A stretch of DNA of 62,634 nucleotides, filler included, from Nemertoderma westbladi (taxonomy: Eukaryota; Animalia; Xenacoelomorpha): NCBI GenBank assembly GCA_032718475.1. It is 4 parts of 4 records of this genome, joined end to end, with 100 filler letters (N's around TTAATTAATTAA, not from the genome) between each part and the next. Parts side by side here need not be neighbours in the genome. Positions count along the whole stretch, not along the records: positions 21,019 to 51,403 come from JAUCBJ010001107.1; 3 more parts are not named here. One strand, 5' to 3'. A program made the translations under genes and the position numbers. Position 1 is the first letter of the stretch; each line of letters opens with the position of its first letter. This document shows positions 20,919 through 60,141 of this stretch, in pieces. The notes under the pieces are model-generated. The model was not told the DNA's origin and did not search any database. It saw only the letters and a program-made list of their open reading frames with translations.

Positions 20919-21018
20919 NNNNNNNNNNNNNNNNNNNNNNNNNNNNNNNNNNNNNNNNNNNNTTAATTAATTAANNNNNNNNNNNNNNNNNNNNNNNNNN
21001 NNNNNNNNNNNNNNNNNN
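20919..21018. other. Artificial contig linker (N-run with six-frame stop TTAATTAATTAA)
   Basis: The same 100-bp N/TTAATTAATTAA/N block occurs three times. Confidence 0.97.
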
Positions 21019-23862
21019 AAGCTCTCTTCAGTTAAAACCGAACCTACCGACCAATATAGGACACACCGGATGTACGCTTGTCGCTGTAGACGTCATCGAC
21101 ATGTTTACGGCTATCCCCCACGAAATTGGGATACAAGCAACTATGGAGGCACTCACAGAGGATCCATCACTACCTTACCGATCCATATACACACCCCATC
21201 AACTATGCCTCATACTCCGCTTTTTACTGTATCATAACTACTTCCAATTTGACCAAAAATTCTATTTACAGATTGCCGGGGCACCCATGGGCGGCTCCCA
21301 CAGTGGAGACTATGCCGTATTAACCACATCCAAAATCATCCATAGGGCTCTGAACGTTACACTATTCTCACACACATTCTTCCGTACTCTAGTCGACGAC
21401 AGTTTACTCATTTACGACCAACACCTTACCCCCCAGCAGATCGACACCCTCACTCACAACCTTAACACAGCATGCGAACAATTATACCACACCAACGATG
21501 TACAATTTACGACTGAATTCTCCTACACCCAAATGAACTACCTAGACGTCACAATATACCGCCACCACAACTCTCTCCTAACTAAACTTTATAAAAAACC
21601 GACATCCAATAAACTCCCAATCCTGTACTCTAGTTACCACCATAAACCATCACTCTTAGCTGTTGTTAAATCCGAAATACTTAGATACCGACGCCTCACT
21701 GATAATGACCACCAGTTCAATCTAGCCCGACACTCCTATCTGGAACTATGCAAACTCAGAGGTTATCCACTCAACTTCCTCCTGCAACTCTACGCCTGGA
21801 ATCCTGAACCCCGGCTACCATGCAACCCCCCCACCGTCATCCCCCAAACACTCCCCCCAATCTACCTTGCGACCACGCCCCATTTCTTGAACATCCTTAC
21901 TAATACCATTAAGCGACACAAAAAATTTCTAAACGACAACCAGATTTGCATTATACCAGTTCCCCGCAATCTGCCCAACCTTGGTCAGATGCTCATCCGC
22001 AAAACAGTACCCCACCGCACCACCGGCAATGAACCCTGCCGCAAACCCCGATGCCTTTGCTGCAAAGCAATTGCCAACCCCTCCACCACCCCATGGGGCC
22101 AACGGATCACAGGCCCTTTCGACTGTAAAACACACAACGTACTTTACATGATCACATGTAAATCCCACCCCAAACAATGGTACCTGGGACAGACTGAACA
22201 ATACATACACAAACGGCTGAACACGCACCGATCCGCCATAAGAGACGCACGAAAAGGGCTCGACACCTCTGACCCAGAAGTTCTCCTACTGCAACACTTC
22301 GTAGACTGCCCCCTCGATGACCTTAACATCACCTGCATTAAACAGTTCCGCAACCATTACCGACGTATCAACACCGAGTCCGTCCTCATCAATCTCCACC
22401 ACCCTCCCCTCAACAAAATCACACCGGCCATGTGACTCGATCCTAGTTTGAACATTTGTTTTTACGGTGTTATGTTTTATAATTAATTAAATTTTGCTGC
22501 AATATTAAGGAACCCCTGAAATTCCTACCAGAGACCCTCAACCATTTTGGTGCATCAACCATTTGGTGTATTTGGTATATACAGTACATAGTTTAATTAT
22601 CTCACAAAATCATTTACAGTTTTACGGTGCTATTTTTAATATTTAATGAAATTTTGCTGCAATAATTAATTCATATCCCCGCAAGAACCCCTGAAATTCC
22701 TACCAGTGACCCTAAACCATTTTGGTGCATCTGCCGTATATACAGTACATAGTTTAATTATCCCACAAAATCATTTACAGTTTTACGGTGCTATTTTTAA
22801 TATTTTATGAAATTTTGCTGCAATAATTAATTCATATCCCCGCAAGTTCCTACCAGAGACCCCTAACCACTTTGGTGCATCTGCCGTATACATGGTACAT
22901 AGTTTAATTATCTCTCAAAATCATTTACAATTTCACGAGACCCTAAACCATTTTGGCGCATCTTTCATACAGTACATAGGCCTACTTTAATTATCTCACA
23001 AAATCATTTACAGTTTTATTGTACTTTTTAATACTTTTACCACAGACCCCAAACCACTTTGGTCCATATGACGTATATGCGGTACACAGTTTTATTACCT
23101 CACAGTTTTATGGTGCTATTTTATTTTAATTTTTGCTGCAATAATTATTTATACCTACCATTCTAAAAACATCTAACAAAGAAACCCACCACCCCCCCCC
23201 CCCCCCCCCAAACCCCCCTCTCAAACCTGCTGAAATATTCCTCCTTATTTTCTCGAGACTCAAACCTTGTCCTAAAAATACTTTCCGCCAACTACGCCCA
23301 TTCTCGGACTGCCCACAACAAAGCCCAACGTAGCCATTTTTATTCATACTGTATCTACGTGCCCCTTGATACTAAATTATACAGTAACACAGCCCTAAGT
23401 AACCCCTAGCCTGAAACCGGTAGCTCCCCACAACCAGTTAACAGCCTGCCTGCCGCAGACTCATACCCCCTACAACCCTAGGTAGTTACCGTCAGCTACA
23501 GTACTTGCATACTTTGGCAACCTACCTACCTAACATACCTAAACGACACATGTCCCCCCTCCCCGCCAGACCCACTTTAATTTTAATTGTACCACCCTTA
23601 CTTAATTAAATAGACATACAGTAGGACCGCATGTCACTGTGTTTCCTTATAGTTATTATGATAATGTACGCGTTCTACCTAGCCAGTCATTCTGTTTTTA
23701 TATAAATTGTTTTTAATGTTCATTTTATCATAAATAAATACCGCTGAGGACACCCGCAACGGGCGAAATGCGCATACGGTAAATTAACTTTTTTATTATT
23801 TATAACCGTGGTTAGACCCTCAACAACCCTACTATCTCTCCGCCTGGAGACATTTTCGATTA
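21019..23862 (+). mobile_element. Penelope-like element copy 1 (5' part lost in gap): RT C-half, GIY-YIG, 3' pseudo-LTR
   Basis: Apparently identical to 25662-28508 except poly-C length. The ORF ends at 22435, 4643 bp before copy 2's stop. Confidence 0.95.
23739..23781 (+). ncRNA. Minimal type I hammerhead ribozyme of the PLE pseudo-LTR
   Basis: TACCG CTGAGGA C ACCCGCAACGGGC GAAA TGCGCA TA CGGTA: stem I TACCG/CGGTA, core CUGANGA..GAAA, palindromic stem III ATGCGCAT. Predicted cut after 23776. Confidence 0.85.
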
Positions 23863-23865
23863 ATT

Positions 23866-26800
23866 ATGCTCACGCCACGCTCGACGTCGGTTAGAAACAT
23901 TAAATATATGGATTTAACACCGAGGGCCTCCTACGACGTCAACAAATGCTTAAAATTAAACCTCTTAAGAACGCGCACACTATACCAAATCGAATACTAC
24001 AAGTCTATTAAAGAATCCAACTTTCCTCCACAACATATCGTCCCCCGAGTTAGCCAAATTCTAAAATTTTACCCTAAACTATATAACGGACTTTTAAAGC
24101 GTATATTTACCACTGAAATCCAGAATAGATACACCAGACTACGTAATCTCCAACGCTTCTACAACGAGTCTTACGCTAGACTTCTAAATTACGCAAACAC
24201 CCGATCCGACACTCGGCCCCTTGATTACTTGGATTTTTGGATCCCAGTCAACATGGACAGAGAACGAACTGTTACACGCGCCCGGCTCGAATACAGGCAT
24301 AGTTTCGATTCCGGTTTCGAGACTATGAATGATTATCTCGACGGTCAACAACCTAACAGGGAACCCGCCAAATTCCGCACCAAACATCTCGACCCATCCC
24401 ACACCCAATCCACGAACCCTTTCCCGCAGGCTCAAGCTCCCGTTACCAATCTATCTAACGTTACCCTCAACCAAGAACAACTGGACCTTCTAGGCTTGGG
24501 ATTCAATTTCATACCATACCGAGGCTTAACCGACTCAGACTGTTTCGAAGCCAGTGTCGACATTTCCATGGCGGCCTCCAAACTCCGCTACAGGAATCGC
24601 CATATTAACCATATCGAACAGAACCGCACCCACAATCCCAGCACCCCACAGAACCCACGCTGCCCGCCTCCCCCCCCTCCCCAGCCGCCAACGAAACCCA
24701 AACCTTCCAGACCAGACCGGCCACCCAGGCGAGTACTTTTCATAGATCCACCAGACCCCCATAACCAACCTGTCCCTATACCAGACTCCCCACATACACC
24801 ACCTCTACATCCCTTACCCCCTCGTAGCAAGCGATGCGACCCATGCTTTCCTCACCCACCCACCCATCAACACGCAACCCCTATCACTGGTACCCCCTCT
24901 ACCCGCACCCGCTCCAAGACCAAAGCTATCGCATCCATTCACCCCCCGAACCTAGCCAGCGAATGGGCACCTGATTCTACCCCCGATACCCACAACCCAC
25001 ACCCGCCCACTCCCGCCACCCCGAATGACCCCACAGCCCAAACACTCCCCCCACCCCACCCACCAGACCCCCCCTTCCAACGCCGCGCAAGATACATCGC
25101 TGCCCGAACTGACAACCCTTCCATCGAAGTAATAATCCACGAGATGCACCGCAACATCAATACTACTAACCTCAAACGATTCAACCAACTAAACCCACCC
25201 AACCTCGACCGGCTACAACTACAAGCCTTGGATACATTGCGCAAACTCAAAGGTGTCACCTACGTAAAAGGTGATAAAACGGCTAACATCATTGTGTTAG
25301 ATTCTCCGGACAGGGACTATGAAATACGGCGCCTCATCAACGATCCCACCACGTACGAATGCTTAAACAAGGACCCCACTGCCCGATTCAGGGTCAAATG
25401 CCGCGCGCTTCTCGACAAACTTGCTCTCACTAACTCAGACCTCAGAACGCACCTATTCCCCAACACGTTTACTGTCGGACATATCTTTATTACATTAAAA
25501 GACCACAAACCGAAAGAAAACTGGGTCACCCATCCGAACGGAAAACTAATCCCCAAAGGCCGCCCTATTATCGCCAACACAGATGCTTTCTTCACCCCAC
25601 TCTCTAAACTCATGCACCACTACCTCAGCCCACTCGTTACTAACGCCGCCAACCACCTACAAAGCTCTCTTCAGTTAAAACCGAACCTACCGACCAATAT
25701 AGGACACACCGGATGTACGCTTGTCGCTGTAGACGTCATCGACATGTTTACGGCTATCCCCCACGAAATTGGGATACAAGCAACTATGGAGGCACTCACA
25801 GAGGATCCATCACTACCTTACCGATCCATATACACACCCCATCAACTATGCCTCATACTCCGCTTTTTACTGTATCATAACTACTTCCAATTTGACCAAA
25901 AATTCTATTTACAGATTGCCGGGGCACCCATGGGCGGCTCCCACAGTGGAGACTATGCCGTATTAACCACATCCAAAATCATCCATAGGGCTCTGAACGT
26001 TACACTATTCTCACACACATTCTTCCGTACTCTAGTCGACGACAGTTTACTCATTTACGACCAACACCTTACCCCCCAGCAGATCGACACCCTCACTCAC
26101 AACCTTAACACAGCATGCGAACAATTATACCACACCAACGATGTACAATTTACGACTGAATTCTCCTACACCCAAATGAACTACCTAGACGTCACAATAT
26201 ACCGCCACCACAACTCTCTCCTAACTAAACTTTATAAAAAACCGACATCCAATAAACTCCCAATCCTGTACTCTAGTTACCACCATAAACCATCACTCTT
26301 AGCTGTTGTTAAATCCGAAATACTTAGATACCGACGCCTCACTGATAATGACCACCAGTTCAATCTAGCCCGACACTCCTATCTGGAACTATGCAAACTC
26401 AGAGGTTATCCACTCAACTTCCTCCTGCAACTCTACGCCTGGAATCCTGAACCCCGGCTACCATGCAACCCCCCCACCGTCATCCCCCAAACACTCCCCC
26501 CAATCTACCTTGCGACCACGCCCCATTTCTTGAACATCCTTACTAATACCATTAAGCGACACAAAAAATTTCTAAACGACAACCAGATTTGCATTATACC
26601 AGTTCCCCGCAATCTGCCCAACCTTGGTCAGATGCTCATCCGCAAAACAGTACCCCACCGCACCACCGGCAATGAACCCTGCCGCAAACCCCGATGCCTT
26701 TGCTGCAAAGCAATTGCCAACCCCTCCACCACCCCATGGGGCCAACGGATCACAGGCCCTTTCGACTGTAAAACACACAACGTACTTTACATGATCACAT

Positions 26801-27078
26801 GTAAATCCCACCCCAAACAATGGTACCTGGGACAGACTGAACAATACATACACAAACGGCTGAACACGCACCGATCCGCCATAAGAGACGCACGAAAAGG
26901 GCTCGACACCTCTGACCCAGAAGTTCTCCTACTGCAACACTTCGTAGACTGCCCCCTCGATGACCTTAACATCACCTGCATTAAACAGTTCCGCAACCAT
27001 TACCGACGTATCAACACCGAGTCCGTCCTCATCAATCTCCACCACCCTCCCCTCAACAAAATCACACCGGCCATGTGA
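23866..27078 (+). CDS. Penelope-like element (Neptune-type) polyprotein: RT + Cys linker + GIY-YIG endonuclease, 1070 aa, intact
   Basis: NLSNVTL..LLGLGFNFIP, KGDKT..IIVLD, KDHK..GRPIIA, VDVIDMFTAIP, GAPMG, LVDD, YLDVTI..LYKKPT, SYHH, CRKPRCLCC, NVLYMITC..YLGQT..KRLNTHR..H..E..LN. Confidence 0.96.
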   Translation: MLTPRSTSVRNIKYMDLTPRASYDVNKCLKLNLLRTRTLYQIEYYKSIKESNFPPQHIVPRVSQILKFYPKLYNGLLKRIFTTEIQNRYTRLRNLQRFYNESYARLLNYANTRSDTRPLDYLDFWIPVNMDRERTVTRARLEYRHSFDSGFETMNDYLDGQQPNREPAKFRTKHLDPSHTQSTNPFPQAQAPVTNLSNVTLNQEQLDLLGLGFNFIPYRGLTDSDCFEASVDISMAASKLRYRNRHINHIEQNRTHNPSTPQNPRCPPPPPPQPPTKPKPSRPDRPPRRVLFIDPPDPHNQPVPIPDSPHTPPLHPLPPRSKRCDPCFPHPPTHQHATPITGTPSTRTRSKTKAIASIHPPNLASEWAPDSTPDTHNPHPPTPATPNDPTAQTLPPPHPPDPPFQRRARYIAARTDNPSIEVIIHEMHRNINTTNLKRFNQLNPPNLDRLQLQALDTLRKLKGVTYVKGDKTANIIVLDSPDRDYEIRRLINDPTTYECLNKDPTARFRVKCRALLDKLALTNSDLRTHLFPNTFTVGHIFITLKDHKPKENWVTHPNGKLIPKGRPIIANTDAFFTPLSKLMHHYLSPLVTNAANHLQSSLQLKPNLPTNIGHTGCTLVAVDVIDMFTAIPHEIGIQATMEALTEDPSLPYRSIYTPHQLCLILRFLLYHNYFQFDQKFYLQIAGAPMGGSHSGDYAVLTTSKIIHRALNVTLFSHTFFRTLVDDSLLIYDQHLTPQQIDTLTHNLNTACEQLYHTNDVQFTTEFSYTQMNYLDVTIYRHHNSLLTKLYKKPTSNKLPILYSSYHHKPSLLAVVKSEILRYRRLTDNDHQFNLARHSYLELCKLRGYPLNFLLQLYAWNPEPRLPCNPPTVIPQTLPPIYLATTPHFLNILTNTIKRHKKFLNDNQICIIPVPRNLPNLGQMLIRKTVPHRTTGNEPCRKPRCLCCKAIANPSTTPWGQRITGPFDCKTHNVLYMITCKSHPKQWYLGQTEQYIHKRLNTHRSAIRDARKGLDTSDPEVLLLQHFVDCPLDDLNITCIKQFRNHYRRINTESVLINLHHPPLNKITPAM

Positions 27079-34329: not shown

Positions 34330-37300
34330 TTATTTCGCTGGTGACAATGAATATATTTATTTACCTGGTGACAATAAATATATTTATTTAGCTGGGGTGA
34401 CAATAAATACATTTATTTTACGAATAAATATGTTTATTTACCTGGTGACAATAAATATATTTATTTAGCTGGGGTGACAATAAATACATTTATTTTACGA
34501 ATAAATATGTTTATTTACCTGGTGACAATAAATATATTTATTTACCAGGTGACAATAAACATATTTATTTACCTAGTGACAATAAATATATTTATTTACC
34601 TGGTGACAATGAGTATATTTATATACCTGGTGACAATACATATATTTGTTTACCTGGTGACAATAAATATATTTATTTACCTGGTCACAATAAATATATT
34701 TATTTACCAGGTGACAATAAATATATTTATTTAGCTGGGGTGACAATAAATACATTTATTTTACTGGTGACAATAAATATATTTATTTACCTGGTGACAA
34801 TGAGTATATTTATTTACCTGGTGACAATAAATATATTTGTTTACCTGGTGACAATAAATATATTTATTTAGCTGGTGACAATGAGTATATTTATTTTCCT
34901 GGTGACAATAAATATATTTATTTACCTGGTGACAATGAGTATATTTATTTACCTGGTGACAATAATTATATTTATTTACCTGGTGACAATGAGTATATTT
35001 ATTTACCTGGTGACAATAAATATATTTATTTACCTGGTGACAATGAGTATATTTATTTACCTGTTGACAATAAATATATTTATTTACCTGGTGACAATAA
35101 ATATATATATTTAGCTTGAGACAATGAGTATATTTATTTACCTGTTGACAATAAATATATTTATTTACCTAGTGACAATAAATATATTTATTTACCTGGT
35201 GACAATAAATATATATATTTAGCTTGAGACAATGAGTATATTTATTTTCCTGGTGACAATAAATATATTTATTTACCTGGTGACAATAAATATATTTATT
35301 TACCTGGTGACAATAAATATATATATTTAGCTTGAGACAATGAGTATATTTATTTACCTGGTGACAATAAATATATTTATTTACCTGGTGACAATGAGTA
35401 TATTTATTTACCTGGTGACAATAAATATATTTATTTACCTGGTGACAATGAGTATATTTATTTACCTGGTAACAATAAATATATTTATTTACCTGGTGAC
35501 AATGAGTATATTTATTTTCCTGGTGACAATAAATATATTTATTTACATGGTGACAATGAGTATATTTATTTTCCTGGTGACAATAAATGTATTTATTTAC
35601 CTGGTGACAATGAGTATATTTATTTACCTGGTGACAATAAATATATTTATTTACCTGGTGACAATGAGTATATTTATTTACCTGGTGACAATAAATATAT
35701 TTATTTACCTGGTGACAATGAGTATATTTATTTTCCTGGTGACAATAAATGTATTTATTTACCTGGTGACAATGAGTATATTTATTTACCTGGTGACAAT
35801 AAATATATTTATTTACCAGGTGACAATAAACATATTTATTTACCTAGTGACAATAAATATATTTATTTAGCTGGGGTGACAATAAATATATTTATTTACC
35901 TGGTGACAATTAGTATATTTATTTACCTGATAACAATAAATATATTTATTTACCTGGTGACAATAAATATATATATTTAGCTTGAGACAATGAGTATATT
36001 TATTTACCTGGTGACAATAAATATATTTATTTACCAGGTGACAATAAACATATTTATTTACCTAGTGACAATAAATATATTTATTTAGCTGGGGTGACAA
36101 TAAACATATTTATTTAACTAGTGACAATAAACATATTTATTTAAAGGGTGACAATAAATATATTTATTTACCAGGTGACAATAAACATATTTATTTACCT
36201 AGTGACAATAAATATATTTATTTACCTGGTGACAATAAATATATTTATTTACCTGGTGACAATAAATATATATATTTAGCTTGAGACAATGAGTATGTTT
36301 ATTTACCTGTTGACAATGAATATATTTATTTAGCTGGTGACAATAAATATATTTATTTAGCTAGTGACAATAAATACATTTATTTTACGGATAAATATAT
36401 ATATTTACCTGGTGACAATAAATATATTTATTTACCAGGTGACAATAAACAGATTTATTTACCTAGTGACAATAAATATATTTATTTACCAGGTGACAAT
36501 AAACATATTTATTTAACTAGTGACAATAAATATATTTATTTAGCCTGGGTGACAATAAATATATTTATTTACCTGGTGACAATAAATACATATATTTAGA
36601 TTGAGACAATGAGTATATTTATTTACCAGGTGACAATAAACAGATTTATTTACCTAGTGACAATAAATATATTTATTTACCAGGTGACAATAAACATATT
36701 TATTTAACTAGTGACAATAAATATATTTATTTAGCCTGGGTGACAATAAATATATTTATTTACCTGGTGACAATAAATACATATATTTAGCTTGAGACAA
36801 TGAGTATATTTATTTACCAGGTGACAATAAACAGATTTATTTACCTAGTGACAATAAATATATTTATTTACCTGGTGACAATAAATACATATATTTAGCT
36901 TGAGACAATGAGTATATTTATTTACCAGGTGACAATAAACAGATTTATTTACCTAGTGACAATAAATATATTTATTTACCAGGTGACAATAAACATATTT
37001 ATTTAACTAGTGACAATAAATATATTTATTTAGCCTGGGTGACAATAAATATATTTATTTACCTGGTGACAATAAATACATATATTTAGCTTGAGACAAT
37101 GAGTATATTTATTTACCAGGTGACAATAAACAGATTTATTTACCTAGTGACAATAAATATATTTATTTACCAGGTGACAATAAACATATTTATTTAACTA
37201 GTGACAATAAATATATTTATATAGCCTGGGTGACAAAAAATATATTTATTTACCTGGTGACAATAAATATATATATTTAGCTTGAGACAATGAGTATATT

Positions 37301-40300
37301 TATTTACCTGTTGACAATAAATATATTTATTTACCTAGTGACAATAAATATATTTATTTAACTAGTGATAATAAATATATTTATTTAGCCTGGGTGACAA
37401 AAAATATATTTATTTACCTGGTGACAATAAATATATATATTTAGCTTGAGACAATGAGTATATTTATTTACCTGTTGACAATAAACAGATTTATTTACCT
37501 AGTGACAATAAATATATTTATTTACCAGGTGACAATAAACATATTTATTTAACTAGTGACAATAAATATATTTATTTAGCCTGGGTGACAATAAATATAT
37601 TTATTTACCTGGTGACAATAAATACATATATTTAGCTTGAGACAATGAGTATATTTATTTACAACTGTATGGAACGCATTGCCTCCGGCCATACGCGAAT
37701 CATCGAATGTGGGCATTTTTAAGAAACGTCTAAAAACTCACCTGTACAATCTGGAATACCACGTAAACTAGTGTCCTATATTACGCTGTGCATATGAAGT
37801 TAAATCTAAACTAAACATTATTTATTTGTTTTTATGGACGACTGACATTTTTTAATTAATTACTTTCAATTTTAAATTTAATTTTAACTTAAGTACTGGA
37901 TGTATACACGATTGTTTTTAACATCAATATATTTTAAATCTTAAAAAGTCCACCATAACAGTTGTTTTTATTGTTTGTTTTTACTATTAATTTTAATTCA
38001 TTATCACTGCCATTATATTCTATTCTGCCATTAATTACATTTTAATTTAACCCGCACTGGAATGCTTGCGTTGATCGTTTTTTTTTATTGTTTGTTTTTT
38101 ACTATATGCTACAATATTTACGATGATCGTTTTTATTGTTTGTTTTTACTATATTTTATGATGTTTTTATTGTTGGTTTTTAATTACTACATTATTTTAG
38201 TTGATTTTTTATTTCATAACTATTGCTATTGCAGTCACGAACTATTAATTACTGTGTACTATGTGTTGTCAGCGCCTTAGAGTACGTATATTATGTAAAT
38301 TTGGCGCTATATAAATAAATATATATTATTATTATTATTATTATTATTACAAGGTGACAATAAACAGATTTATTTACCTAGTGACAATAAATATATTTAT
38401 TTACCAGGTGACAATAAACATATTTATTTAACTAGTGACAATAAATATATTTATTTAGCCTGGGTGACAAAAAATATATTTATTTACCTGGTGACAATAA
38501 ATATATATATTTAGCTTGAGACAATGAGTATATTTATTTACCTGTTGACAATAAATATATTTATTTACCTAGTGACAATAAACAGATTTATTTACCTAGT
38601 GACAATAAATATATTTATTTAGCTGGGGTGACAATAAATACATTTATTTTACGAATAAATATGTTTATTTACCTGGTGACAATAAATATATTTATTTAGC
38701 TGGGGTGACAATAAATACATTTATTTTACGAATAAATATGTTTATTTACCTGGTGACAATAAATATATTTATTTACCAGGTGACAATAAACATATTTATT
38801 TACCTAGTGACAATAAATATATTTATTTACCTGGTGACAATGAGTATATTTATATACCTGGTGACAATACATATATTTGTTTACCTGGTGACAATAAATA
38901 TATTTATTTACCTGGTCACAATAAATATATTTATTTACCAGGTGACAATAAATATATTTATTTAGCTGGGGTGACAATAAATACATTTATTTTACTGGTG
39001 ACAATAAATATATTTATTTACCTGGTGACAATGAGTATATTTATTTACCTGGTGACAATAAATATATTTGTTTACCTGGTGACAATAAATATATTTATTT
39101 AGCTGGTGACAATGAGTATATTTATTTTCCTGGTGACAATAAATATATTTATTTACCTGGTGACAATGAGTATATTTATTTACCTGGTGACAATAATTAT
39201 ATTTATTTACCTGGTGACAATGAGTATATTTATTTACCTGGTGACAATAAATATATTTATTTACCTGGTGACAATGAGTATATTTATTTACCTGTTGACA
39301 ATAAATATATTTATTTACCTGGTGACAATAAATATATATATTTAGCTTGAGACAATGAGTATATTTATTTACCTGTTGACAATAAATATATTTATTTACC
39401 TAGTGACAATAAATATATTTATTTACCTGGTGACAATGAGTATATTTATTTACCTGGTGACAATAATTATATTTATTTACCTGGTGACAATGAGTATATT
39501 TATTTACCTGGTGACAATAAATATATTTATTTACCTGGTGACAATGAGTATATTTATTTACCTGTTGACAATAAATATATTTATTTACCTGGTGACAATA
39601 AATATATATATTTAGCTTGAGACAATGAGTATATTTATTTACCTGTTGACAATAAATATATTTATTTACCTAGTGACAATAAATATATTTATTTACCTGG
39701 TGACAATAAATATATATATTTAGCTTGAGACAATGAGTATATTTATTTTCCTGGTGACAATAAATATATTTATTTACCTGGTGACAATAAATATATTTAT
39801 TTACCTGGTGACAATAAATATATATATTTAGCTTGAGACAATGAGTATATTTATTTACCTGGTGACAATAAATATATTTATTTACCTGGTGACAATGAGT
39901 ATATTTATTTACCTGGTGACAATAAATATATTTATTTACCTGGTGACAATAAATATATATATTTAGCTTGAGACAATGAGTATATTTATCTACCTGTTGA
40001 CAATAAATATTTATTTACCTGGTGACAATAAATATATTTATTTACCTGTTGACAATAAATATTTATTTACCTGGTGTCAATAAATATATATATTTAGCTT
40101 GAGACAATGAGTATATTTATTTACCTGTTGACAATAAATATTTATTTACCTGGTGACAATAAATATATTTATTTACCTGTTGACAATAAATATTTATTTA
40201 CCTGGTGACAATAAATATATTTATTTAGCTTGAGACAATGAGTATATTTATTTACCTGTTGACAATAAATATTTATTTACCTGGTGACAATAAATATATT

Positions 40301-40645
40301 TATTTACCTGTTGACAATAAATATTTATTTACCTGGTGTCAATAAATATATATATTTAGCTTGAGACAATGAGTATATTTATTTACCTGTTGACAATAAA
40401 TATTTATTTACCTGGTGACAATAAATATATTTATTTACCTGTTGACAATAAATATTTATTTACCTGGTGACAATAAATATATTTATTTAGCTTGAGACAA
40501 TGAGTATATTTATTTACCTGTTGACAATAAATATTTATTTACCTGGTGACAATAAATATATATATTTAGCTTGAGACAATGAGTATATTTATTTACCTGT
40601 TGACAATAAATATTTATTTAGCTGGTGACAATGAATATTTATTTA
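34330..40645. repeat. ~27-bp AT-rich satellite (GGTGACAATAAATATATTTATTTACCT) with higher-order duplication
   Basis: Continuous tandem units. A variant block at ~34370-35100 recurs 4231 bp downstream. Interrupted at 37663-38348. Confidence 0.97.
37663..38348 (+). mobile_element. 5'-truncated L2/CR1-type LINE inserted in the satellite
   Basis: ORF2 end VWNALPPAIRESSNVGIFKKRLKTHLY*, 3' end AGCGCCTTAGAG..GGCGCTATATAAAT, (ATT)n tail, ttacaa at both junctions. Confidence 0.85.
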
Positions 40646-40670
40646 TAATAAAATGAATTAATATTTTCAG

Positions 40671-40802
40671 TCGCTGGACAATAATAATTTCGATCACTAC
40701 GCGGCGATATATCTGCTGTTGGTAGACCGTCTAAAGGAGCACAGGGACAAGGTTGCCATGGCGAGGAAACTAGGGGAACCAATAGGATCGCTATCCACCC
40801 AG
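40671..40802 (+). CDS. Internal exon of a salt-inducible kinase (SIK/AMPK-related) gene, UBA domain C-terminal half
   Basis: ttttcAG|132 nt|GTagg, phase 0. SLDNNNFDHYAAIYLLLVDRLKEHR resembles SIK1/2 [25 protein letters not shown] (recalled, not searched). Confidence 0.8.
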
Positions 40803-40845
40803 GTAGGAGAACCAAGGGGATTATTGTTGCTTTATCGAAAGCTAT

Positions 40846-42373
40846 CCAATAATATGTTAATAATAGTTAAGTTAAACTCTCCAATAATATGTTAATAATA
40901 GTTAAGTTAAACTCTCCAATAATACGTTAATAATAGTTAAGTTAAACTCTCCAATAATACGTAAATAATAGTTAAGTTAAACTCTCCAATAATACGTTAA
41001 TAATAGTTAAGTTAAACTCTCCAATAATACGTAAATAATAGTTAAGTTAAACTCTCCAATAATACGTAAATAATAGTTAAGTTAAACTCTCCAATAATAC
41101 GTTAATAATAGTTAAGTTAAACTCTCCAATAATACGTAAATAATAGTTAAGTTAAACTCTCCAATAATACGTTAATAATAGTTAAGTTAAACTCTCCAAT
41201 AATACGTAAATAATAGTTAAGTTAAACTCTCCAATAATACGTTAATAATAGTTAAGTTAAACTCTCCAATAATACGTAAATAATAGTTAAGTTAAACTCT
41301 CCAATAATACGTTAATAATAGTTAAGTTAAACTCTCCAATAATACGTAAATAATAGTTAAGTTAAACTCTCCAATAATACGTAAATAATAGTTAAGTTAA
41401 ACTCTCCAATAATACGTTAATAATAGTTAAGTTAAACTCTCCAATAATACGTTAATAATAGTTAAGTTAAACTCTCCAATAATACGTTAATAATAGTTAA
41501 GTTAAACTCTCCAATAATACGTTAATAATAGTTAATAATAGTTAAGTTAAACTCTCCAATAATACGTTAATAATAGTTAAGTTAAACTCTCCAATAATAC
41601 CTTAATAATAGTTAAGTTAAACTCTCCAATAATACGTTAATAATAGTTAAGTTAAACTCTCCAATAATACGTAAATAATAGTTAAGTTAAACTCTCCAAT
41701 AATACGTTAATAATAGTTAATAATAGTTAAGTTAAACTCTCCAATAATACGTTAATAATAGTTAATAATAGTTAAGTTAAACTCTCCAATAATACGTTAA
41801 TAATAGTTAATAATAGTTAAGTTAAACTCTCCAATAATACGTTAATAATAGTTAAGTTAAACTCTCCAATAATACGTAAATAATAGTTAAGTTAAACTCT
41901 CCAATAATACGTTAATAATAGTTAAGTTAAACTCTCCAATAATACGTAAATAATAGTTAAGTTAAACTCTCCAATAATACGTAAATAATAGTTAAGTTAA
42001 ACTCTCCAATAATACGTTAATAATAGTTAAGTTAAACTCTCCAATAATACGTAAATAATAGTTAAGTTAAACTCTCCAATAATACGTTAAATAATAGTTA
42101 AGTTAAACTCTCCAATAATACGTTAAATAATAGTTAAGTTAAACTCTCCAATAATACGTTAATAATAGTTAAGTTAAACTCTCCAATAATACGTTAATAA
42201 TAGTTAAGTTAAACTCTCCAATAATACGTTAATAATAGTTAATAATAGTTAAGTTAAACTCTCCAATAATACGTTAATAATAGTTAATAATAGTTAAGTT
42301 AAACTCTCCAATAATACGTTAATAATAGTTAAGTTAAACTCTCCAATAATACCTTAATAATAGTTAAGTTAAA
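40846..42373. repeat. 35-bp satellite (CCAATAATACGTTAATAATAGTTAAGTTAAACTCT), ~40+ copies
   Basis: Direct tandem units with occasional 10-bp slippage. Confidence 0.97.
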
Positions 42374-43035
42374 CTTAAGTTAAGTTTTAAATAATTCACT
42401 TAAAATTATTTAGATATTTGTCATCATTACTCTTTGCCGCACTTCCGCTTCGAACACAGTAAAAGTAATTTGTTATTTGATCTTATATCTATCTATAGTC
42501 ACGACGTTACACCATGACCTGGAATATAGTGTTGTTATTCGGTGAAATGGCCCGTCTCCGTCGATATGGCACCACCCGTACTGCAGTTATTCTTCAACCT
42601 TATAGTCCCAAGTACCCCGGTACTGGTAAACTGGACTGTTAATTATATAGCGTAATAATCCAACTATGAAATACTTCTCAGTATGATAGAGAAAATTTGA
42701 AAATTTAAAAAAATGTACAACATTTTTGCCAACTTCTCAAAAATCGCCAAGTTTGCGGAATTTCGCCCAATATTTGTTTGTAATTGGCGCCTTAACGTTG
42801 AAACGCTGCAAAGTAAATCAATTACATTAGCTGTTCAATTAAGCGTTCAGACCTCCGTTTAAGTTGATATAATAATACAATAGTATGAAAAGGGCACTAA
42901 TCAGCGTTAAAGACCATTGTGTATGTATACCTCACTCGCTTGGCTCTCTATACATAAATACACCCGCCCGTGATATAGATGAGAAGTTCTACTTTTCACA
43001 CAATGATGTAAATATTTCTCTGTTTATTCCCCCAG

Positions 43036-43233
43036 AGTGGATGCGCTTCGATCGGTCCCCAACACAGCTTCCCGGACTCCTCGATCGAGTCCACCACCTC
43101 ATCCGGCTACTCCTCGGGCTATTCATCCTCCTACGAACATCGATCCTCTTTGGTGGGCCCCCCTACTGGCAGACGGAGTCTACTGCTCTCTGGGGACAGT
43201 GGAGCGGAGGGGGCAGTAACCGACCATAGTGAG
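43036..43233 (+). CDS. Putative next exon of the SIK-like gene (Ser-rich)
   Basis: ccccAG|198 nt|GTgagg, phase 0, open: SGCASIGPQHSFPDSSIESTTSSGYSSGYSSSYEHR..AVTDHSE. GC-richer island. Confidence 0.65.
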
Positions 43234-43659
43234 GTGAGGTACAGCTGCAGTAGGCCTATCTACCACCATACTAGGCTGGCTAATAATTAATTATTGGACT
43301 GGCTTTTAGTTACGACGATTTTTAATGACGCCTAAACACAAAATTGCCACTCTCAGTGCTTTTATTGGGGCCAAAATTCCAACATTCAAGTACAATCCGG
43401 CTCCAGGTAGAGTTCCTGTTTGCCAAGGGACAAATGCCTGAATGGCGCCGGTCAGCCTAGCACGAGCCTGAAAAGGATTCGAGTTAGGGTGACACTAGGC
43501 AAAGCGCGGGAGAAAGGGACACCCGACCCCGAGCTAAGCCGCTTGACTTGCCTTAGGCAGCCTTATGCAGCATCACTGCTGCATTCTCTCGCAGACCGAC
43601 AGACACCAATTGACAGCCGAGCTGAGCCGGTCAGCGTATCACGAGCCTGAAAAGGATTC

Positions 43660-44042
43660 GGGGTACGGTGACTCTAGGCAAAGCAAGGGATAGACAATTT
43701 AGCAACGGACCACCGACGGATTGGGGGTACGGTGACTCTAGGCAAAGCAAGGGATAGACAATTTAGCAACGGACCACCGACGGATTCGGGGTACGGTGAC
43801 TCTAGGCAAAGCAAGGGATAGACAATTTAGCAACGGACCACCGACGGATTGGGGGTACGGTGACTCTAGGCAAAGCAAGGGATAGACAATTTAGCAACGG
43901 ACCACCGACGGATTGGGGGTACGGTGACTCTAGGCAAAGCAAGGGATAGACAATTTAGCAACGGACCACCGACGGATTGGGGGTACGGTGACTCTAGGCA
44001 AAGCAAGGGATAGACAATTTAGCAACGGACCACCGACGGATT
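43660..44042. repeat. 64-bp tandem repeat x6
   Basis: ggggtacggtgactctaggcaaagcaagggatagacaatttagcaacggaccaccgacggatt repeated. A diverged related unit sits at ~43447-43505. Confidence 0.95.
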
Positions 44043-44549
44043 TTCGACGGCCTAATGACAGACTTATCGACTTATGACAATGACAGACACAGACAGACCA
44101 GACAGACTGGTATCAAACGTAGTTCTGGGGAGTTAAAATTTAAATAAATAATTCTGACTGACCAAATAATTCGTAAATGTAGGCTTATATTACAGTATAA
44201 AAAACTCATTTGATTATTATTATTATATATATTTCATTTATATTGGCGTATTGGGGAGTCCCATATATTTGGAATCAGTGTGTATCAGCGCAAAGAGAAC
44301 TTGATCAGTTAGAATAAAAATGGATGATTCAACCCAACTTGTTCTTTTTCCTTTTCGACTGCATTACCAATCACTCCCTGATCCATATCCGGTGACTAGT
44401 ATTGTTGAGATCCACAACCCTCTCAAACTTACATCGGCGTTATTGAAATAACGGTTATAATAACGGATATCTTATAATAACGGAAATAACGGATGTTGTA
44501 TGTTATTTTACAGTATGTTGATGCCCCTGTTACAATTTGTATCTATTAA

Positions 44550-45982
44550 CCCTATTACCACTGGGGTGTTTTGACCATTAGCACCACTGGGGGGGGGGGG
44601 GGGGGGGCGATTCGGCCCACCCACTTTATTTTTGTAGTCGTCCAATGAAATTCTACAAAATTTGGGCTGTTGGTGAAACAACTATAGATGAACCCTACCA
44701 AACCTTAAAAAGTTAAAATTTCATAAGCAGGGACTCATAATTTTGATGAAAAATAAAAGTAGTCCCAGGACAAAATTTCAAAATTTTTCGTTTTCTAAAA
44801 ACTAATAGTGTGGCAGTGTTGGCTAGATTTAGTAGGTTTTTCAAGACGCTGAATCGAATGTGATTATATTCCACTTCCAAAAATTGAAGTGTATGCTATT
44901 TTTCTTGCACCTAAGTAGTGGGCGTGGCACTTCAAATTTTGAAAAATTAGATATTCAGAAAATGCCCCTAATTTTTTTATTTCAACGCATCTTTATGGGT
45001 TTTCTGGGCCACTGAATCGATTGAAAGTAATATAGAAGCCTGAAGACTGAGTGGTTCGCCATTTTTGGTGCACCAAAATTAGGGCGTGGCACTTCAAATT
45101 TTGAAAAATACGAGATTCGGAAAATAAACCAAAATTGAAATTTTAACGAATTTATATAGGTTTTCCAAACCGCTGAATCGATTGAAAGTAATATAGAAGC
45201 CTGAAGACTTAGAAGTTAGCCATTTTTTGAAATCAAAACTTTAGTGTTTTTTTCGAACAAAGTATTTTTGAAAATTTGAAGTGCCACGCCCTAATTTTGG
45301 TGCACCGAAAATTTCGTACACAAAGGATTTGAGGCTTCTATATTACTTTTAATCGATTCAGCGCTCCAGAAAACCTATAAAATTAATTTGAAATCAAAAC
45401 TTTAGTGAATTTTCCGAATCTCGTATTTTTTAAAATTTGAAGTGCCACGCCCTAATTTTGGTGCACCAAAAATGGCGAACCACTAAGTCTTCAGGCTTCT
45501 ATATTACTTTCAATCGATTCAGCGTTCCAGAAAACCTATAAAAATGCTTTGCAAATCAAAACTGTAGTGTATTTTCAGAATCTCGTATTTTTCAAAATTT
45601 AAAGTGCCACGCCCTAATTTTGGTGCTCCAAAAATGACGTACCACTACACTTACATACTTGTATAGAGCATTAGAGTGATCCAAACCAATAAAAATAAAT
45701 AATAATAGCCCAAACATAAATAATTACTAAATCACGAATGACTTTGTAAAATTAGAAAATTTCAAAAAATTTGGTGCTGGAGACCAAATTTTGAGGTGGC
45801 ACCCACATCGAAAAGTAGAAATCCAATTGCAACGGCGTTTTTTGCAAAAGATGCGGCATTAAATTTGGCTAATTCTCACAAAAAATTGGGCCGGTACGTA
45901 ATGTGGTTGCATAGTTACAGCAACTAAAAACTAGGAAGGGGCCGATTCGCCCCCCCCCCCCCCCCCCCCAGTGGTAATAGGG
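44550..45982. mobile_element. piggyBac-like non-autonomous element (MITE)
   Basis: TTAA|CCCTATTACCACTGGGG ... CCCCAGTGGTAATAGGG|TTAA. Internal ~165-bp subrepeats in opposing orientation. Confidence 0.88.
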
Positions 45983-46010
45983 TTAAGATATTATTGTTAA
46001 ATTATGCCAA

Positions 46011-47400
46011 GCAGCAGCTGGGTCTAGTGGTGACATTCCTGGGCTTCCAATTAGGGAGCCCTGGTTCGATCCCAAGATGGGGCAGCACTATTTGGGCACA
46101 GTGCTTTAAATGCTGCAGCCCAGCCCAGCCCAACCCCGGCTTTCATCCTTCAGTGGTCGATAAATGGGAACCAAGGCAACTTGGACAGAGTGGAAGGGTT
46201 TACTGTGGAAGATCACCCATGGTGGTGAACAGTAGGAAACAGAGTGGAAGGGTTTGCTGTGGAAGATCACCCATGGTGGTGAACAGGCATTCTTTTGGGA
46301 AACAGAGTGGAAGGGTTTACTGTGGAAGATCACCCATGGTGGTGGACAGGCATTCCTTTAGGAAACAGAGTGGAATGGTTTACTGTGGAAGATCACCCAT
46401 GGAGGTGAACAGGCATTCCTTTAGGAAACAGAGTGGAAGGGTTTACTGTGGAAGATCACCCATGGTGGTGAACAGGTATTCCTTTAGGAAACAGAGTGGA
46501 AGGGTTTACTGTGGAAGATCATCCATGGTGGTTAACAGGCATTCCTTTAGGAAACAGAGTGGAAGGGTTTACTGTGGAAGATCACCCATGGTGGTGAACA
46601 GGTATTCCTTAAGGAAACAGAGTGGAAAGGTTTACTGTGGAAGATTACCCATGATGGTGAACAGGTATTCCTTTAAGAAACAGAGTGGAAGGGTTTACTG
46701 TGGAAGATCACCCATGGTGGTGAACAGGCATTTCTGTTGGGAAACAGAGTGGAAGGGTTTGCTGTGGAAGATCACCCATGGTGGTGAACAGGTATTCCTT
46801 AAGGAAACAGAGTGGAAGGGTTTACTGTGGAAGATTACCCATGATGGTGAACAGGCATTCCTTTAGGAAACAGAGTGGAAGGGTTTACTGTGGAAGATCA
46901 CCCATGGTGGTGAACAGGTATTCCTTAAGGAAACAGAGTGGAAAGGTTTACTGTGGAAGATTACCCATGATGGTGAACAGGTATTCCTTTAAGAAACAGA
47001 GTGGAAGGGTTTACTGTGGAAGATCACCCATGGTGGTGAACAGGCATTCCTTTGGGAAACAGAGTGGAAGGGTTTGCTGTGGAAGATCACCCATGGTGGT
47101 GAACAGGTATTCCTTAAGGAAACAGAGTGGAAGGGTTTACTGTGGAAGATTACCCATGATGGTGAACAGGCATTCCTTTAGGAAACAGAGTGGAAGGGTT
47201 TGCTGTGGAAGATCACCCATGGTGGTGAACAGGTATTCCTTTAGGAAATAGAGTGGAAAGGTTTACTGTGGAAGATTACCCATGATGGTGAACAGGCATT
47301 CCTTTGGGAAACAGAGTGGAAGGGTTTGCTGTGGAAGATCACCCATGGTGGTGAACAGGTATTCCTTGGCTTAACGAGCCTAAATGATTCTCCCATTCAG
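46011..47400 (+). mobile_element. tRNA(Gly)-derived SINE with an internally amplified 63-bp array
   Basis: A box TGGGTCTAGTGG, CTTCCAA loop, B box GGTTCGATCCC, then CTTTCATCCTTCAGTGGTCGATAAATGGGAACCA (RTE-5'/Ceph-like SINE body, recalled). Confidence 0.75.
46184..47367. repeat. 63-bp tandem repeat, ~19 copies
   Basis: ggaaacagagtggaagggtttactgtggaagatcacccatggtggtgaacaggcattccttta units. Confidence 0.97.
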
Positions 47401-49734: not shown

Positions 49735-49900
49735 TATTATCATGATGAGAAATCTCATTTGGGTTGCGAGAAGGTATCAGACGACATTTTGTCACGTTTT
49801 TTTTGGATAGGTTTAAGAGACGACGTTAAAAAGTACATCAAAGTTTGTGATAGTTGTCAACGTCGAAAGGGATCACCCTCCTGGCAGCCATTGTCACCTT
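49735..49900 (+). mobile_element. LTR-retrotransposon integrase HHCC fragment
   Basis: HDEKSHLGCEKV..RFFWIGLRDDVKKYIKVCDSCQRRK..PLSPL. Confidence 0.75.
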
Positions 49901-51403
49901 TAAATAAATTGGAGATGAGCTGTTGCAACTGTAATTAAAGGTGTAATATTATGGGTTTGTTCAGAAGTGGAAAAAATGGGAGCGCGTCACCGGGGGTTGA
50001 ACCAGCGCTATACGCACGTTTCGGCCTAACAGGCCTCATCAGTAGCGCTAACCAGCTCAGCCACTAGCCCCTGACACTCGCAGTCCCACCTAATCCACTT
50101 CTATTGAACGGGCAGTCTTAAGTTGCAAGTATTCTATCTCTAACAGCGGACCTAACGGCCTCAAGTATGCTAGAGTGAAACAGGAGGGAAGTACAAATAA
50201 ATAAATATTCAGCTCGGTATTGCTGCCAGGTGATATTAATTAAATAAATTGGAGATGAGCTGTTGCAACTGTAATTAAAGGTGTAATATTATGGGTTTGT
50301 TCAGAAGTGGAAAAAATGGGAGCGCGTCACCGGGGGTTGAACCAGCGCTATACGCACGTTTCGGCCTAACAGGCCTCATCAGTAGCGCTAACCAGCTCAG
50401 CCACTAGCCCCTGACACTCGCAGTCCCACCTAATCCACTTCTATTGAACGGGCAGTCTTAAGTTGCAAGTATTCTATCTCTAACAGCGGACCTAACGGCC
50501 TCAAGTATGCTAGAGTGAAACAGGAGGGAAGTACAAATAAATAAATATTCAGCTCGGTATTGCTGCCAGGTGATATTAATTAAATAAATTGGAGATGAGC
50601 TGTTGCAACTGTAATTAAAGGTGTAATATTATGGGTTTGTTCAGAAGTGGAAAAAATGGGAGCGCGTCACCGGGGGTTGAACCAGCGCTATACGCACGTT
50701 TCGGCCTAACAGGCCTCATCAGTAGCGCTAACCAGCTCAGCCACTAGCCCCTGACACTCGCAGTCCCACCTAATCCACTTCTATTGAACGGGCAGTCTTA
50801 AGTTGCAAGTATTCTATCTCTAACAGCGGACCTAACGGCCTCAAGTATGCTAGAGTGAAACAGGAGGGAAGTACAAATAAATAAATATTCAGCTCGGTAT
50901 TGCTGCCAGGTGATATTAATTAAATAAATTGGAGATGAGCTGTTGCAACTGTAATTAAAGGTGTAATATTATGGGTTTGTTCAGAAGTGGAAAAAATGGG
51001 AGCGCGTCACCGGGGGTTGAACCAGCGCTATACGCACGTTTCGGCCTAACAGGCCTCATCAGTAGCGCTAACCAGCTCAGCCACTAGCCCCTGACACTCG
51101 CAGTCCCACCTAATCCACTTCTATTGAACGGGCAGTCTTAAGTTGCAAGTATTCTATCTCTAACAGCGGACCTAACGGCCTCAAGTATGCTAGAGTGAAA
51201 CAGGAGGGAAGTACAAATAAATAAATATTCAGCTCGGTATTGCTGCCAGGTGATATTAATTAAATAAATTGGAGATGAGCTGTTGCAACTGTAATTAAAG
51301 GTGTAATATTATGGGTTTGTTCAGAAGTGGAAAAAATGGGAGCGCGTCACCGGGGGTTGAACCAGCGCTATACGCACGTTTCGGCCTAACAGGCCTCATC
51401 AGT
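49901..51403 (-). mobile_element. Tandem 340-bp hammerhead-containing repeat (non-LTR retrozyme), >=4.4 copies, running into the gap
   Basis: Apparently identical units start at 49901, 50241, 50581, 50921 and 51261. Each carries a canonical hammerhead on the minus strand. Confidence 0.92.
50004..50049 (-). ncRNA. Type I hammerhead ribozyme (also at +340, +680, +1020, partial +1360)
   Basis: Minus strand AGCGCTA CTGATGA GGCC TGTTA GGCC GAAA CGTGCG TA TAGCGCT: perfect core, stems I-III, GUA cleavage between 50011 and 50010. Confidence 0.93.
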
Positions 51404-51503
51404 NNNNNNNNNNNNNNNNNNNNNNNNNNNNNNNNNNNNNNNNNNNNTTAATTAATTAANNNNNNNNNNNNNNNNNNNNNNNNNNNNNNNNNNNNNNNNN
51501 NNN
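51404..51503. other. Artificial contig linker
   Basis: N/TTAATTAATTAA/N block. Confidence 0.97.
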
Positions 51504-56003: not shown

Positions 56004-56873
<870 letters not shown>

Positions 56874-60041: not shown

Positions 60042-60141
60042 NNNNNNNNNNNNNNNNNNNNNNNNNNNNNNNNNNNNNNNNNNNNTTAATTAATTAANNN
60101 NNNNNNNNNNNNNNNNNNNNNNNNNNNNNNNNNNNNNNNNN
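60042..60141. other. Artificial contig linker
   Basis: N/TTAATTAATTAA/N block. Confidence 0.97.

What the first reader, a model, noticed from the sequence alone, without database searches (positions are those of the whole stretch)
49965..50090. Hammerhead ribozyme built into a tRNA(Asn)-like Pol III unit
Seen on the minus strand of each 340-bp unit, in order: A-box TGGCTGAGCTGG (50063-50052), TTAGCGC, the hammerhead, B-box GGTTCAACCCC (50003-49993), ..TCCCA, then TTTTTT (49976-49971). The ribozyme occupies the position of a tRNA anticodon/variable arm. Its stem II GGC-CTGTTAG-GCC-GAAA resembles the eukaryotic tRNA-Asn segment GGTTAGCGCG-TTCGG-CTGTTAA-CCGAAAG..GGTTCG (recalled consensus), including the GUU anticodon in loop II. 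Known: the schistosome Sm-alpha hammerhead repeats carry tRNA-related Pol III boxes. Inference: this may be a tRNA-hammerhead chimera, a self-transcribing and self-cleaving RNA in which the anticodon loop serves as HHR loop II and the A and B boxes pair (TGAGCT/GGTTCA) to extend stem I, with possible alternative tRNA-like versus ribozyme folds.
Basis: partly seen in the sequence, partly recalled or inferred. Interest (0 to 1): 0.85.

Follow-up and report, generated by a model that had tools for sequence, protein, structure and literature searches.

The report
Hammerhead ribozyme inside tRNA promoter boxes
A short, many-copy repeat in what is likely an animal genome carries a predicted self-cutting hammerhead RNA whose outer stem is made from matches to the two tRNA-type promoter boxes, so this known kind of jumping element likely carries its own promoter; it cannot form a tRNA cloverleaf, and our tests did not support the proposed asparagine-tRNA origin.

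Summary
All listed motifs are present at the stated coordinates, in a 340-bp tandem array (4.4 identical copies). The element is a non-LTR retrozyme: a canonical type I hammerhead (RF00163, E 0.0034, below the gathering score) in a high-copy family. An A box followed by a B box appears in only 98 of 100,000 shuffles. The boxes flank the cleavage site and pair as distal stem I, and a common family variant keeps both roles. Diverged copies share just this ~100-nt core. The tRNA-Asn chimera is not supported. No cloverleaf forms. Asn ranks 13th-19th of 420 viral tRNAs. Random stems II match Asn as well in 5-9% of trials. The 'anticodon' reads GAU in 41-80% of family depth. Best model: a Pol III promoter overlapping the ribozyme; the cut separates the boxes, which are rejoined only in circles or tandem copies. 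Against it: T6 should stop Pol III 35 nt after the cut, and transcription is untested. I found no paper describing this nested layout; Sm-alpha has the promoter upstream. This scan noted the layout before in the same genome (two unreviewed notes).

The parts
49900..51403 (-). Tandem array of 4.4 identical 340-bp units (non-LTR retrozyme-type); the upstream end runs into an N gap at 51404
49981..50078 (-). Core shared by diverged family copies (about 15 nt before the A box to just past the B-box arm)
   Evidence: table 8: several long contigs with up to 17 differences align only from 49978-49991 to 50075-50081
50052..50063 (-). Pol III A-box match; 50059-50055 is also the 5' strand of distal stem I
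   Evidence: tRNA D-arm likeness
50043..50050 (-). Hammerhead stem I, 5' strand (contains an 8-nt palindrome); 4-nt bulge 50054-50051 above it
50036..50042 (-). Catalytic core strand CUGAUGA
50023..50035 (-). Stem II (4 bp) with 5-nt loop II (50031-50027) ending in A; middle base 50029 is U or A in the family
50012..50022 (-). GAAA core strand and 2-bp stem III with a self-complementary 4-nt loop (perfect palindrome in 84-97% of family depth)
50010..50011 (-). Predicted cleavage site after GUA, between the A box and the B box
   Evidence: alignment; established hammerhead consensus
50003..50010 (-). Stem I, 3' strand; U at 50004 is the seventh base after the cut, where Sm-alpha and RECK hammerheads also have U
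49993..50003 (-). Pol III B-box match; 50002-49998 is also the 3' strand of distal stem I
   Evidence: no variant at 3% or more listed here
49971..49976 (-). T6 run, candidate Pol III terminator; the only run of 4 or more T on this strand of the unit
   Evidence: T5-T8 in diverged copies
50068..50109 (-). 5' arm of a long predicted rod that closes the ribozyme domain; includes a second A-box-like match at 50097-50086
49959..49995 (-). 3' arm of that rod; it runs through and past the T6 tract
50147..50172 (-). Decayed look-alike of the ribozyme's 5' half within the spacer
   Evidence: local alignment score 29; significance not tested
50345..50403 (-). Second copy of A box and hammerhead (further copies with A boxes at 50743 and 51083; a cut copy ends at 51403)

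Best explanation
This is a non-LTR retrozyme unit in which a type I hammerhead motif sits between matches to the Pol III A and B boxes, and it likely uses those boxes as its own promoter while the same bases are predicted to pair as the ribozyme's outer stem I. Inferred cycle: (1) TFIIIC binds A and B boxes 61 nt apart, and Pol III starts about 15 nt upstream of the A box, near 50078. (2) Most transcripts would stop at T6 as RNAs of about 105 nt. (3) Transcripts that read through T6, or host Pol II transcripts across the array, reach the next unit. (4) Hammerheads cut after GUA, likely helped by dimerising through the palindromic stem III, and release 340-nt monomers. (5) A host RtcB-type ligase circularises them, and a Penelope-type or other reverse transcriptase pastes them back as tandem copies. 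Because the cut falls between the boxes, a linear monomer has B before A; the promoter is whole again only in a circle or a tandem copy, which would favour arrays. Shown: sequence, pairing, repeat structure, high copy number, conserved core. Inferred: every transcription, cleavage, ligation and mobilisation step.
For: Hammerhead consensus complete, with the animal-type geometry of about 6-bp helix I, 4-bp helix II and 1-2-bp palindromic helix III (PMC4209133 passages). Unit length and tandem, ORF-free layout fit non-LTR retrozymes of 170-400 nt (PMC7229834). Boxes exceed chance: 98 of 100,000, and 12 of 100,000 with T4. The 19-nt A-box/D-arm motif lies in an ARAGORN tRNA in 107 of 118 viral loci. 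Change 50056 (39%, 44%, 90% of depth) keeps the A-box purine and turns G-U into A-U; no variant at 3% or more is listed in the B box or stem I. Diverged copies align only over the box-to-box core and keep T5-T8 after it. Summed contig depth is about 1e5 on the array against 40 on the flank. Precedent for Pol III plus hammerhead: Sm-alpha (PMC6765202 passages).
Against: T6 lies 35 nt after the cut and should end Pol III transcription before a unit-length RNA is made. The predicted rod runs through T6, so the T run could be kept for pairing instead. The family is young and the core is not clearly less variable than the rest by site count (X2: 7 sites at 3% in 151 nt; 51 sites at 5% over the 1,001-nt stretch). 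The human RECK hammerhead has the same TGAGC at the same register and a similar partner strand without being a promoter (compared by eye, chosen after the fact), so part of the box likeness may be inherited ribozyme stem. In this copy the hammerhead fold is 3.2 kcal/mol above the minimum-energy fold, with stem I probability 0.22. The Rfam score is below the gathering threshold.
Confidence: 0.55

Rival explanations
1. It is an ordinary non-LTR retrozyme transcribed by host Pol II read-through; the box matches are a vestige of tRNA ancestry, or partly a by-product of an old hammerhead distal stem I, and no longer drive transcription.
For: T6 blocks unit-length Pol III RNA while the rod spans it. 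RECK hammerhead shares the distal stem I motif. Newt satellite hammerhead repeats appear to be Pol II transcripts (PMC6765202 passage).
Against: Joint box match is rare. A-box bases outside the pairing (50063-50060, 50053-50052) and B-box bases outside it (49994-49993) fit the consensus, with no variant at 3% or more listed. The shared core of diverged copies starts about where a Pol III start would lie.
Confidence: 0.27
2. First reader's origin model (compatible with the best explanation on function): the ribozyme was built out of a tRNA-Asn gene, whose anticodon arm and following GAAA became stem II and the second core strand, with two short insertions supplying CUGAUGA and stem III/stem I.
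For: Colinear alignment with eukaryote-type tRNA-Asn over D arm, anticodon arm and T loop needs only two larger gaps. Against Asn alone, random stems II do as well in only 92-135 of 2,000 trials. Four giant-virus-type Asn genes plus one other Asn are second-best for stem II plus GAAA alone.
Against: Best isotype is Ile under all 4 scoring schemes, with Asn ranked 13-19 of 420. Allowing any tRNA, random stems II do as well in 101 of 600 (all arms) or 157 of 2,000 (59 D-arm-matched arms). The anticodon-equivalent reads GAU in 41-80% of depth. GAAA and the 3' A of loop II are required by the ribozyme anyway (PMC2632901 passages). No cloverleaf.
Confidence: 0.18
3. The working unit is the short Pol III RNA (about 105 nt, 50078 to T6), which cuts itself, or a partner in trans, into 68- and about 39-nt pieces that stay paired; the 340-bp array is satellite DNA amplified at the DNA level, not through RNA circles.
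For: The conserved core matches that transcript length and T5-T8 is kept. The transcript closes on itself with an outer stem (probability about 0.65).
Against: Unit size, type I hammerhead and self-paired rod match retrozymes shown to make circles in coral, mussel and axolotl (PMC7229834). Family copies sit in many different flanks (loose ends), which suits dispersal by retrotransposition.
Confidence: 0.12

Closest known systems
Metazoan non-LTR retrozymes (Cervera and de la Pena 2020, PMC7229834; Li et al. 2026, bioRxiv 10.64898/2026.07.22.740005)
   Same: Tandem 170-400-nt non-coding repeats under 50% GC with one canonical type I hammerhead each, a self-paired predicted circle, and Penelope-like elements in the same genome.
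   Different: Neither main text mentions Pol III or an element promoter (term searches; supplements not seen). Here A and B boxes overlap the ribozyme's stem I and a T6 follows.
Schistosoma Sm-alpha / Sj-alpha SINE-like hammerhead repeats (via PMC6765202 and PMC2770079 passages; Ferbeyre 1998 not held)
   Same: tRNA-type Pol III promoter plus type I hammerhead in a repeat, often tandem; single cut copies lose the ability to propagate.
   Different: Sm-alpha is described as a promoter followed by the ribozyme, with a tRNA-Gln(TTG)-like head that tRNAscan-SE detects. Here the ribozyme and its cut lie between the boxes, no tRNA is detected, and box bases double as ribozyme stem.
Human RECK intronic hammerhead (sequence seen in the PMC10761166 supplement)
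   Same: Type I topology, 4-bp stem II, loop II ending in A, U at position 7 after the cut, and a similar distal stem I at the same register.
   Different: Single intronic copy; its distal stem I strands do not fit A or B box consensus (by eye); longer stem III.
Helenus non-autonomous LTR retrotransposons (Kojima 2024, PMC10886601 passages)
   Same: Mobile element that keeps tRNA-derived A and B boxes while losing tRNA function.
   Different: Helenus has LTRs, PBS and PPT and no ribozyme described; this unit is a tandem non-LTR repeat.

Membership tests
Type I hammerhead ribozyme | Core C3-A9, G12-A15, U16, H17 with stems I-III closing on the core | tested here: met
   Rfam score 23.4 is below the gathering score of 34
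Type I hammerhead ribozyme | Loop I/loop II tertiary contact (3' A of loop II, U in stem I internal loop) | tested here: inconclusive
   Both bases are present in the Sm-alpha register, but the internal loop is a one-sided 4-nt bulge; contact not modelled
Type I hammerhead ribozyme | Site-specific self-cleavage | not testable with these tools
   Only contigs were available, which cannot show RNA ends
Non-LTR retrozyme | Tandem non-coding units of 150-450 bp, each with a type I hammerhead | tested here: met
Non-LTR retrozyme | Multi-copy family with sequence variants across the genome | tested here: met
   793 and 589 contigs laid on the 151-nt stretch in runs X2 and X4; depth contrast
Non-LTR retrozyme | Highly self-paired unit-length RNA | tested here: inconclusive
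   A long rod is predicted, but z = -1.28 and 12 of 100 shuffles fold as well
Non-LTR retrozyme | Expressed as linear and circular unit-length RNA | not testable with these tools
   No raw-read RNA run was available
Non-LTR retrozyme | Target-site duplication around the array | not testable with these tools
   One end of the array lies in an N gap
Type 2 Pol III transcription unit (tRNA-type) | A box, B box at suitable spacing, oligo-T terminator | tested here: met
   (12 of 100,000 shuffles); box patterns are recalled consensus, in line with PMC10886601
Type 2 Pol III transcription unit (tRNA-type) | Pol III-dependent transcript | not testable with these tools
   needs ChIP, inhibitor or in vitro transcription data
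tRNA gene or tRNA-shaped RNA | Cloverleaf (acceptor, D, anticodon and T stems) | tested here: not met
tRNA-Asn derivative | Best match to tRNA-Asn, beyond controls | tested here: not met
   reference set is viral and preselected by the D-arm motif, host tRNAs not available
Sm-alpha-type SINE | Whole tRNA-like head upstream of the ribozyme | tested here: not met
   B box lies downstream of the cut; no second B box in the unit

The most novel reading that the evidence does not exclude
A self-promoting retrozyme born from a tRNA gene: the same ten or so bases act as TFIIIC boxes in DNA and as the hammerhead's outer stem in RNA, self-cleavage splits the promoter so that only circles and tandem copies regain it, and the ribozyme's stem II is a converted anticodon arm. 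A second, independent tRNA-arm/hammerhead fusion (type III, D arm as stem I) in loci L055-L058 would make tRNA genes a recurring scaffold for hammerhead birth.
Probability: 0.2. Interest if true: 0.8.

Novelty: new variant of a known kind. Interest (0 to 1): 0.5.

Why it matters
Animal retrozyme RNAs are abundant in all tissues tested, yet the two retrozyme papers I searched do not name a promoter for them. A promoter that overlaps the ribozyme would explain constitutive expression and why such elements persist as tandem arrays, since the cut separates the boxes. The overlap makes a clean test possible: box function and stem pairing can be mutated separately. If Pol III is not involved, this is an ordinary retrozyme.

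Tried and rejected
No whole genome is held, so host tRNAs and full family sequences could not be read. No RNA holder listed. Run X1 is only guessed to be RNA and gave a single 371-nt contig that wraps one 341-nt period of this variant; it is not used as evidence of expression. Searches for relatives with the nested layout: viral contigs 0, 0, 0, and 16 loci of which 0 have a B box within 60 nt. Metagenome: 8 loci, 4 being one unrelated repeat and 4 apparently chance. Prokaryote genomes: 22 loci, none judged a ribozyme by eye. One search recovered 18 tRNA-Asn genes among 52 loci, but its pattern contained the anticodon, so it was not counted as support and those loci were left out of the ranking. 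The shuffle test (45.5 against a maximum of 43.5 in 200) is inflated because the tRNA set was chosen with the window's own D-arm motif. A loop II motif that I recalled (URNYA-type) was not found in print; those null runs (142-187 of 2,000; 161 of 600; 402 of 2,000) are secondary. Folding z-scores were unremarkable (-0.39; -1.28). Trying to view Rfam's other hammerhead models on a cut range gave only a weak type III hit. Summed contig depth across the core was not used as a conservation measure, because edge effects and overlapping unitigs distort it. The 1090-aa ORF gave no Pfam, PDB or pairwise hit, so calling it Penelope-like rests on motifs and layout. Unreadable sources that may bear on novelty: Ferbeyre 1998, the PMC7229834 supplement, the alignment pages of PMC3088659 Dataset S1 (only 300 of 1018 pages read) and bioRxiv supplements.

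Full report
Observation. It is the last complete ribozyme region of a perfect tandem array, 49900-51403, period 340, 4.4 copies at 100% identity. The other end runs into an N gap, so target-site duplications cannot be checked. Perfect identity may reflect a recent insertion or the assembly. The window looks like repeat-rich animal DNA: a Pao/BEL element, a reverse-transcriptase fragment and an NAC-domain gene by Pfam. The host being an animal is an inference.

The ribozyme. Rfam's type I hammerhead model matches 50048-50005 at 23.4 bits, E 0.0034, under the gathering score of 34 (nothing at gathering level in the window). The full core is present. Direct pairing gives stem I 8 of 8, stem II 4 of 4 and stem III 2 of 2, with cleavage predicted after GUA at 50011/50010. 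This is the geometry described for canonical animal hammerheads, including a short helix III with a palindromic loop that favours dimers (PMC4209133 passages). In 94%, 97% and 84% of family depth the loop is a perfect palindrome; this copy has a G there that still pairs by wobble. In folding, the ribozyme conformation is 3.2 kcal/mol above the minimum for this copy and 2.4 with the common family letters, and stem I probability rises from 0.22 to 0.82. The competing fold is a hairpin that sequesters the A box and the start of the core, not a tRNA shape.

The element. Contigs of three DNA-type runs hold hundreds of variants (793, 589 and 46 contigs on 151 nt), with summed depth near 1e5 on the array against 40 on the flank in X2 (not a copy number). 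Unit length, tandem layout, lack of an ORF and a long predicted rod match the non-LTR retrozymes of PMC7229834 (abstract, parts 2-4 of 6 with results and discussion read). Those were shown to self-cleave and accumulate as circles, likely ligated by RtcB and mobilised by Penelope-like elements. A 2026 preprint argues the same origin (abstract only). The window has a Penelope-like ORF with minimal-hammerhead-like motifs, identified by motif only.

Are the Pol III boxes real? An A box followed 20-80 nt later by a B box occurs in 98 of 100,000 dinucleotide shuffles of the unit, and with a T4 after it in 12; the only 4 matches in the window are array copies. The 19-nt A-box/D-arm motif lies inside an ARAGORN tRNA in 107 of 118 viral loci (the scan covered 27 of 64 parts). 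The boxes are 61 nt apart (T8 to G53 equivalents). Five A-box bases pair with five B-box bases above a 4-nt bulge. The two unconstrained A-box positions are those that complement the B box, at the cost of the D stem. The common change at 50056 (39%, 44%, 90% of depth) keeps the A-box purine and converts G-U to A-U; no variant at 3% or more is listed in the B box or proximal stem I. Several long diverged contigs align only between about 49981 and 50078, and loose-end consensus sequences keep T5-T8 just downstream in all but one type. That downstream stretch is still homologous in these copies, so the kept T run is weak evidence alone. T6 is the only T4+ run on this strand of the unit.

Evidence against a working promoter. 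T6 lies 35 nt after the cut, so Pol III should stop long before a 340-nt monomer is made, and the predicted rod pairs through the T run. By site count the core is not clearly less variable than the rest. The human RECK hammerhead has TGAGC at the same position, 17-13 bases before the core, and a similar partner strand, yet no box consensus (PMC10761166 supplement read whole; compared by eye, chosen after the fact). Part of the likeness may therefore be an inherited ribozyme stem. No RNA data could test transcription.

tRNA-Asn? But the D-arm motif alone retrieves Ile 60, Asp 19, Met 11, Asn 7 and 10 others of 107. Over 420 unique tRNAs (433 less those over 100 nt or of uncertain isotype) the best isotype is Ile in all four scoring schemes and Asn ranks 13-19. 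Replacing stem II by random 4-bp stems matches Asn as well in 92-135 of 2,000 trials, and matches some tRNA arm as well in 101 of 600 (all arms) or 157 of 2,000 (D-arm-matched arms). The loop's middle base is A, giving GAU, in 41%, 50% and 80% of depth. GAAA is core, and the 3' A of loop II is a known tertiary-contact base (PMC2632901 passages). In tRNA register only 2 of 4 D-stem, 3 of 5 T-stem and 3 of 7 acceptor pairs form. The reference tRNAs are viral, preselected, and include Ile(GAU) genes that animals mostly lack (recalled), so an Asn origin stays possible, at about 0.18.

Mechanism. Most likely a retrozyme that carries an internal Pol III promoter overlapping its ribozyme. Short terminated RNAs would dominate; read-through or host Pol II transcripts would give multimers that are cut to monomers, circularised and reinserted. 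Since the cut falls between the boxes, a linear monomer is promoter-permuted and only circles or tandem copies restore A-before-B. All steps beyond sequence and repeat structure are inferred.

Comparison and novelty. Sm-alpha is the nearest Pol III precedent, but it is described as a promoter followed by the ribozyme, with a tRNA-Gln-like head (PMC6765202 and PMC2770079 passages; the primary paper was not held). Six full-text searches (listings seen) and term searches in PMC7229834, PMC6155905, PMC3088659 and the 2026 preprint found no description of a hammerhead nested between the boxes; unseen supplements and subscription papers could hold one. No sequence relatives were found in viral, metagenome or prokaryote collections. 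One unrelated repeat in a metagenome has a type III hammerhead with an A-box-like loop I and a following B box; the B box was part of the search pattern, the A box was not. Earlier unreviewed notes of this scan report the nested layout in other arrays of the same genome; they are leads, not support.

Verdict. Real feature; a new variant of a known kind. The nested-promoter reading has about even odds; the tRNA-Asn anticodon and dual-fold claims are not supported. Interest 0.5.

Noticed in passing
L055-L058, positions 1-127: Four contigs of one metagenome share a 126-bp repeat end with a type III hammerhead match (RF00008, 27.6 bits, E 0.0057). Its stem-loop I reads like a tRNA D arm with an A-box match, and a B-box match follows the core. 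Flanks look fungal by eye. A different tRNA-box/hammerhead fusion.
   Followed up: partly
L182, L183, L197, L198, L200, around 470-565: Archaeal intron-containing tRNA genes (Phe-like; ARAGORN calls three Ser) whose anticodon loop plus intron read CUGANGA, a short stem, then GAAA, the order of a hammerhead core, but with no stem I or cleavage site.
   Followed up: partly
window 23744, 28390 and 48965 (+ strand): Minimal-hammerhead-like motifs (CUGAGGA or CUGAAGA core, bulged base before stem II, no stem III), two in the 1.56-kb repeats of a tandem Penelope-like element (ORFs 20975-22435 and 23806-27078) and one orphan about 900 bp from the array.
   Followed up: partly
window 50172-50147 (-), each unit: Decayed look-alike of the ribozyme's 5' half in the spacer, inside its own predicted hairpin.
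   Followed up: partly
window 50097-50086 (-): A second A-box-like match 34 nt upstream of the first, within the rod arm.
   Followed up: no
window 50023 and 50040: Family variants that touch the ribozyme: C11.1 to U in 14-34% of depth, and a 4-nt insertion at the core start in one contig at a third of X5 depth.
   Followed up: no
window 56004-56873 (+): Intronless NAC-alpha-like gene (NAC and UBA domains); possibly a retrocopy.
   Followed up: no
window 5883-7685 (+): Several overlapping long frames between LTR-element fragments, not identified.
   Followed up: no
window 34330-47367: Cluster of satellites with periods 27, 35, 64, 161 and 63.
   Followed up: no
window 20963-20974, 51448-51459, 60086-60097: Each assembly gap is two 44-N runs around a 12-base spacer; the one read (51448-51459) is a linker-like AT palindrome, an assembly artefact.
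   Followed up: no
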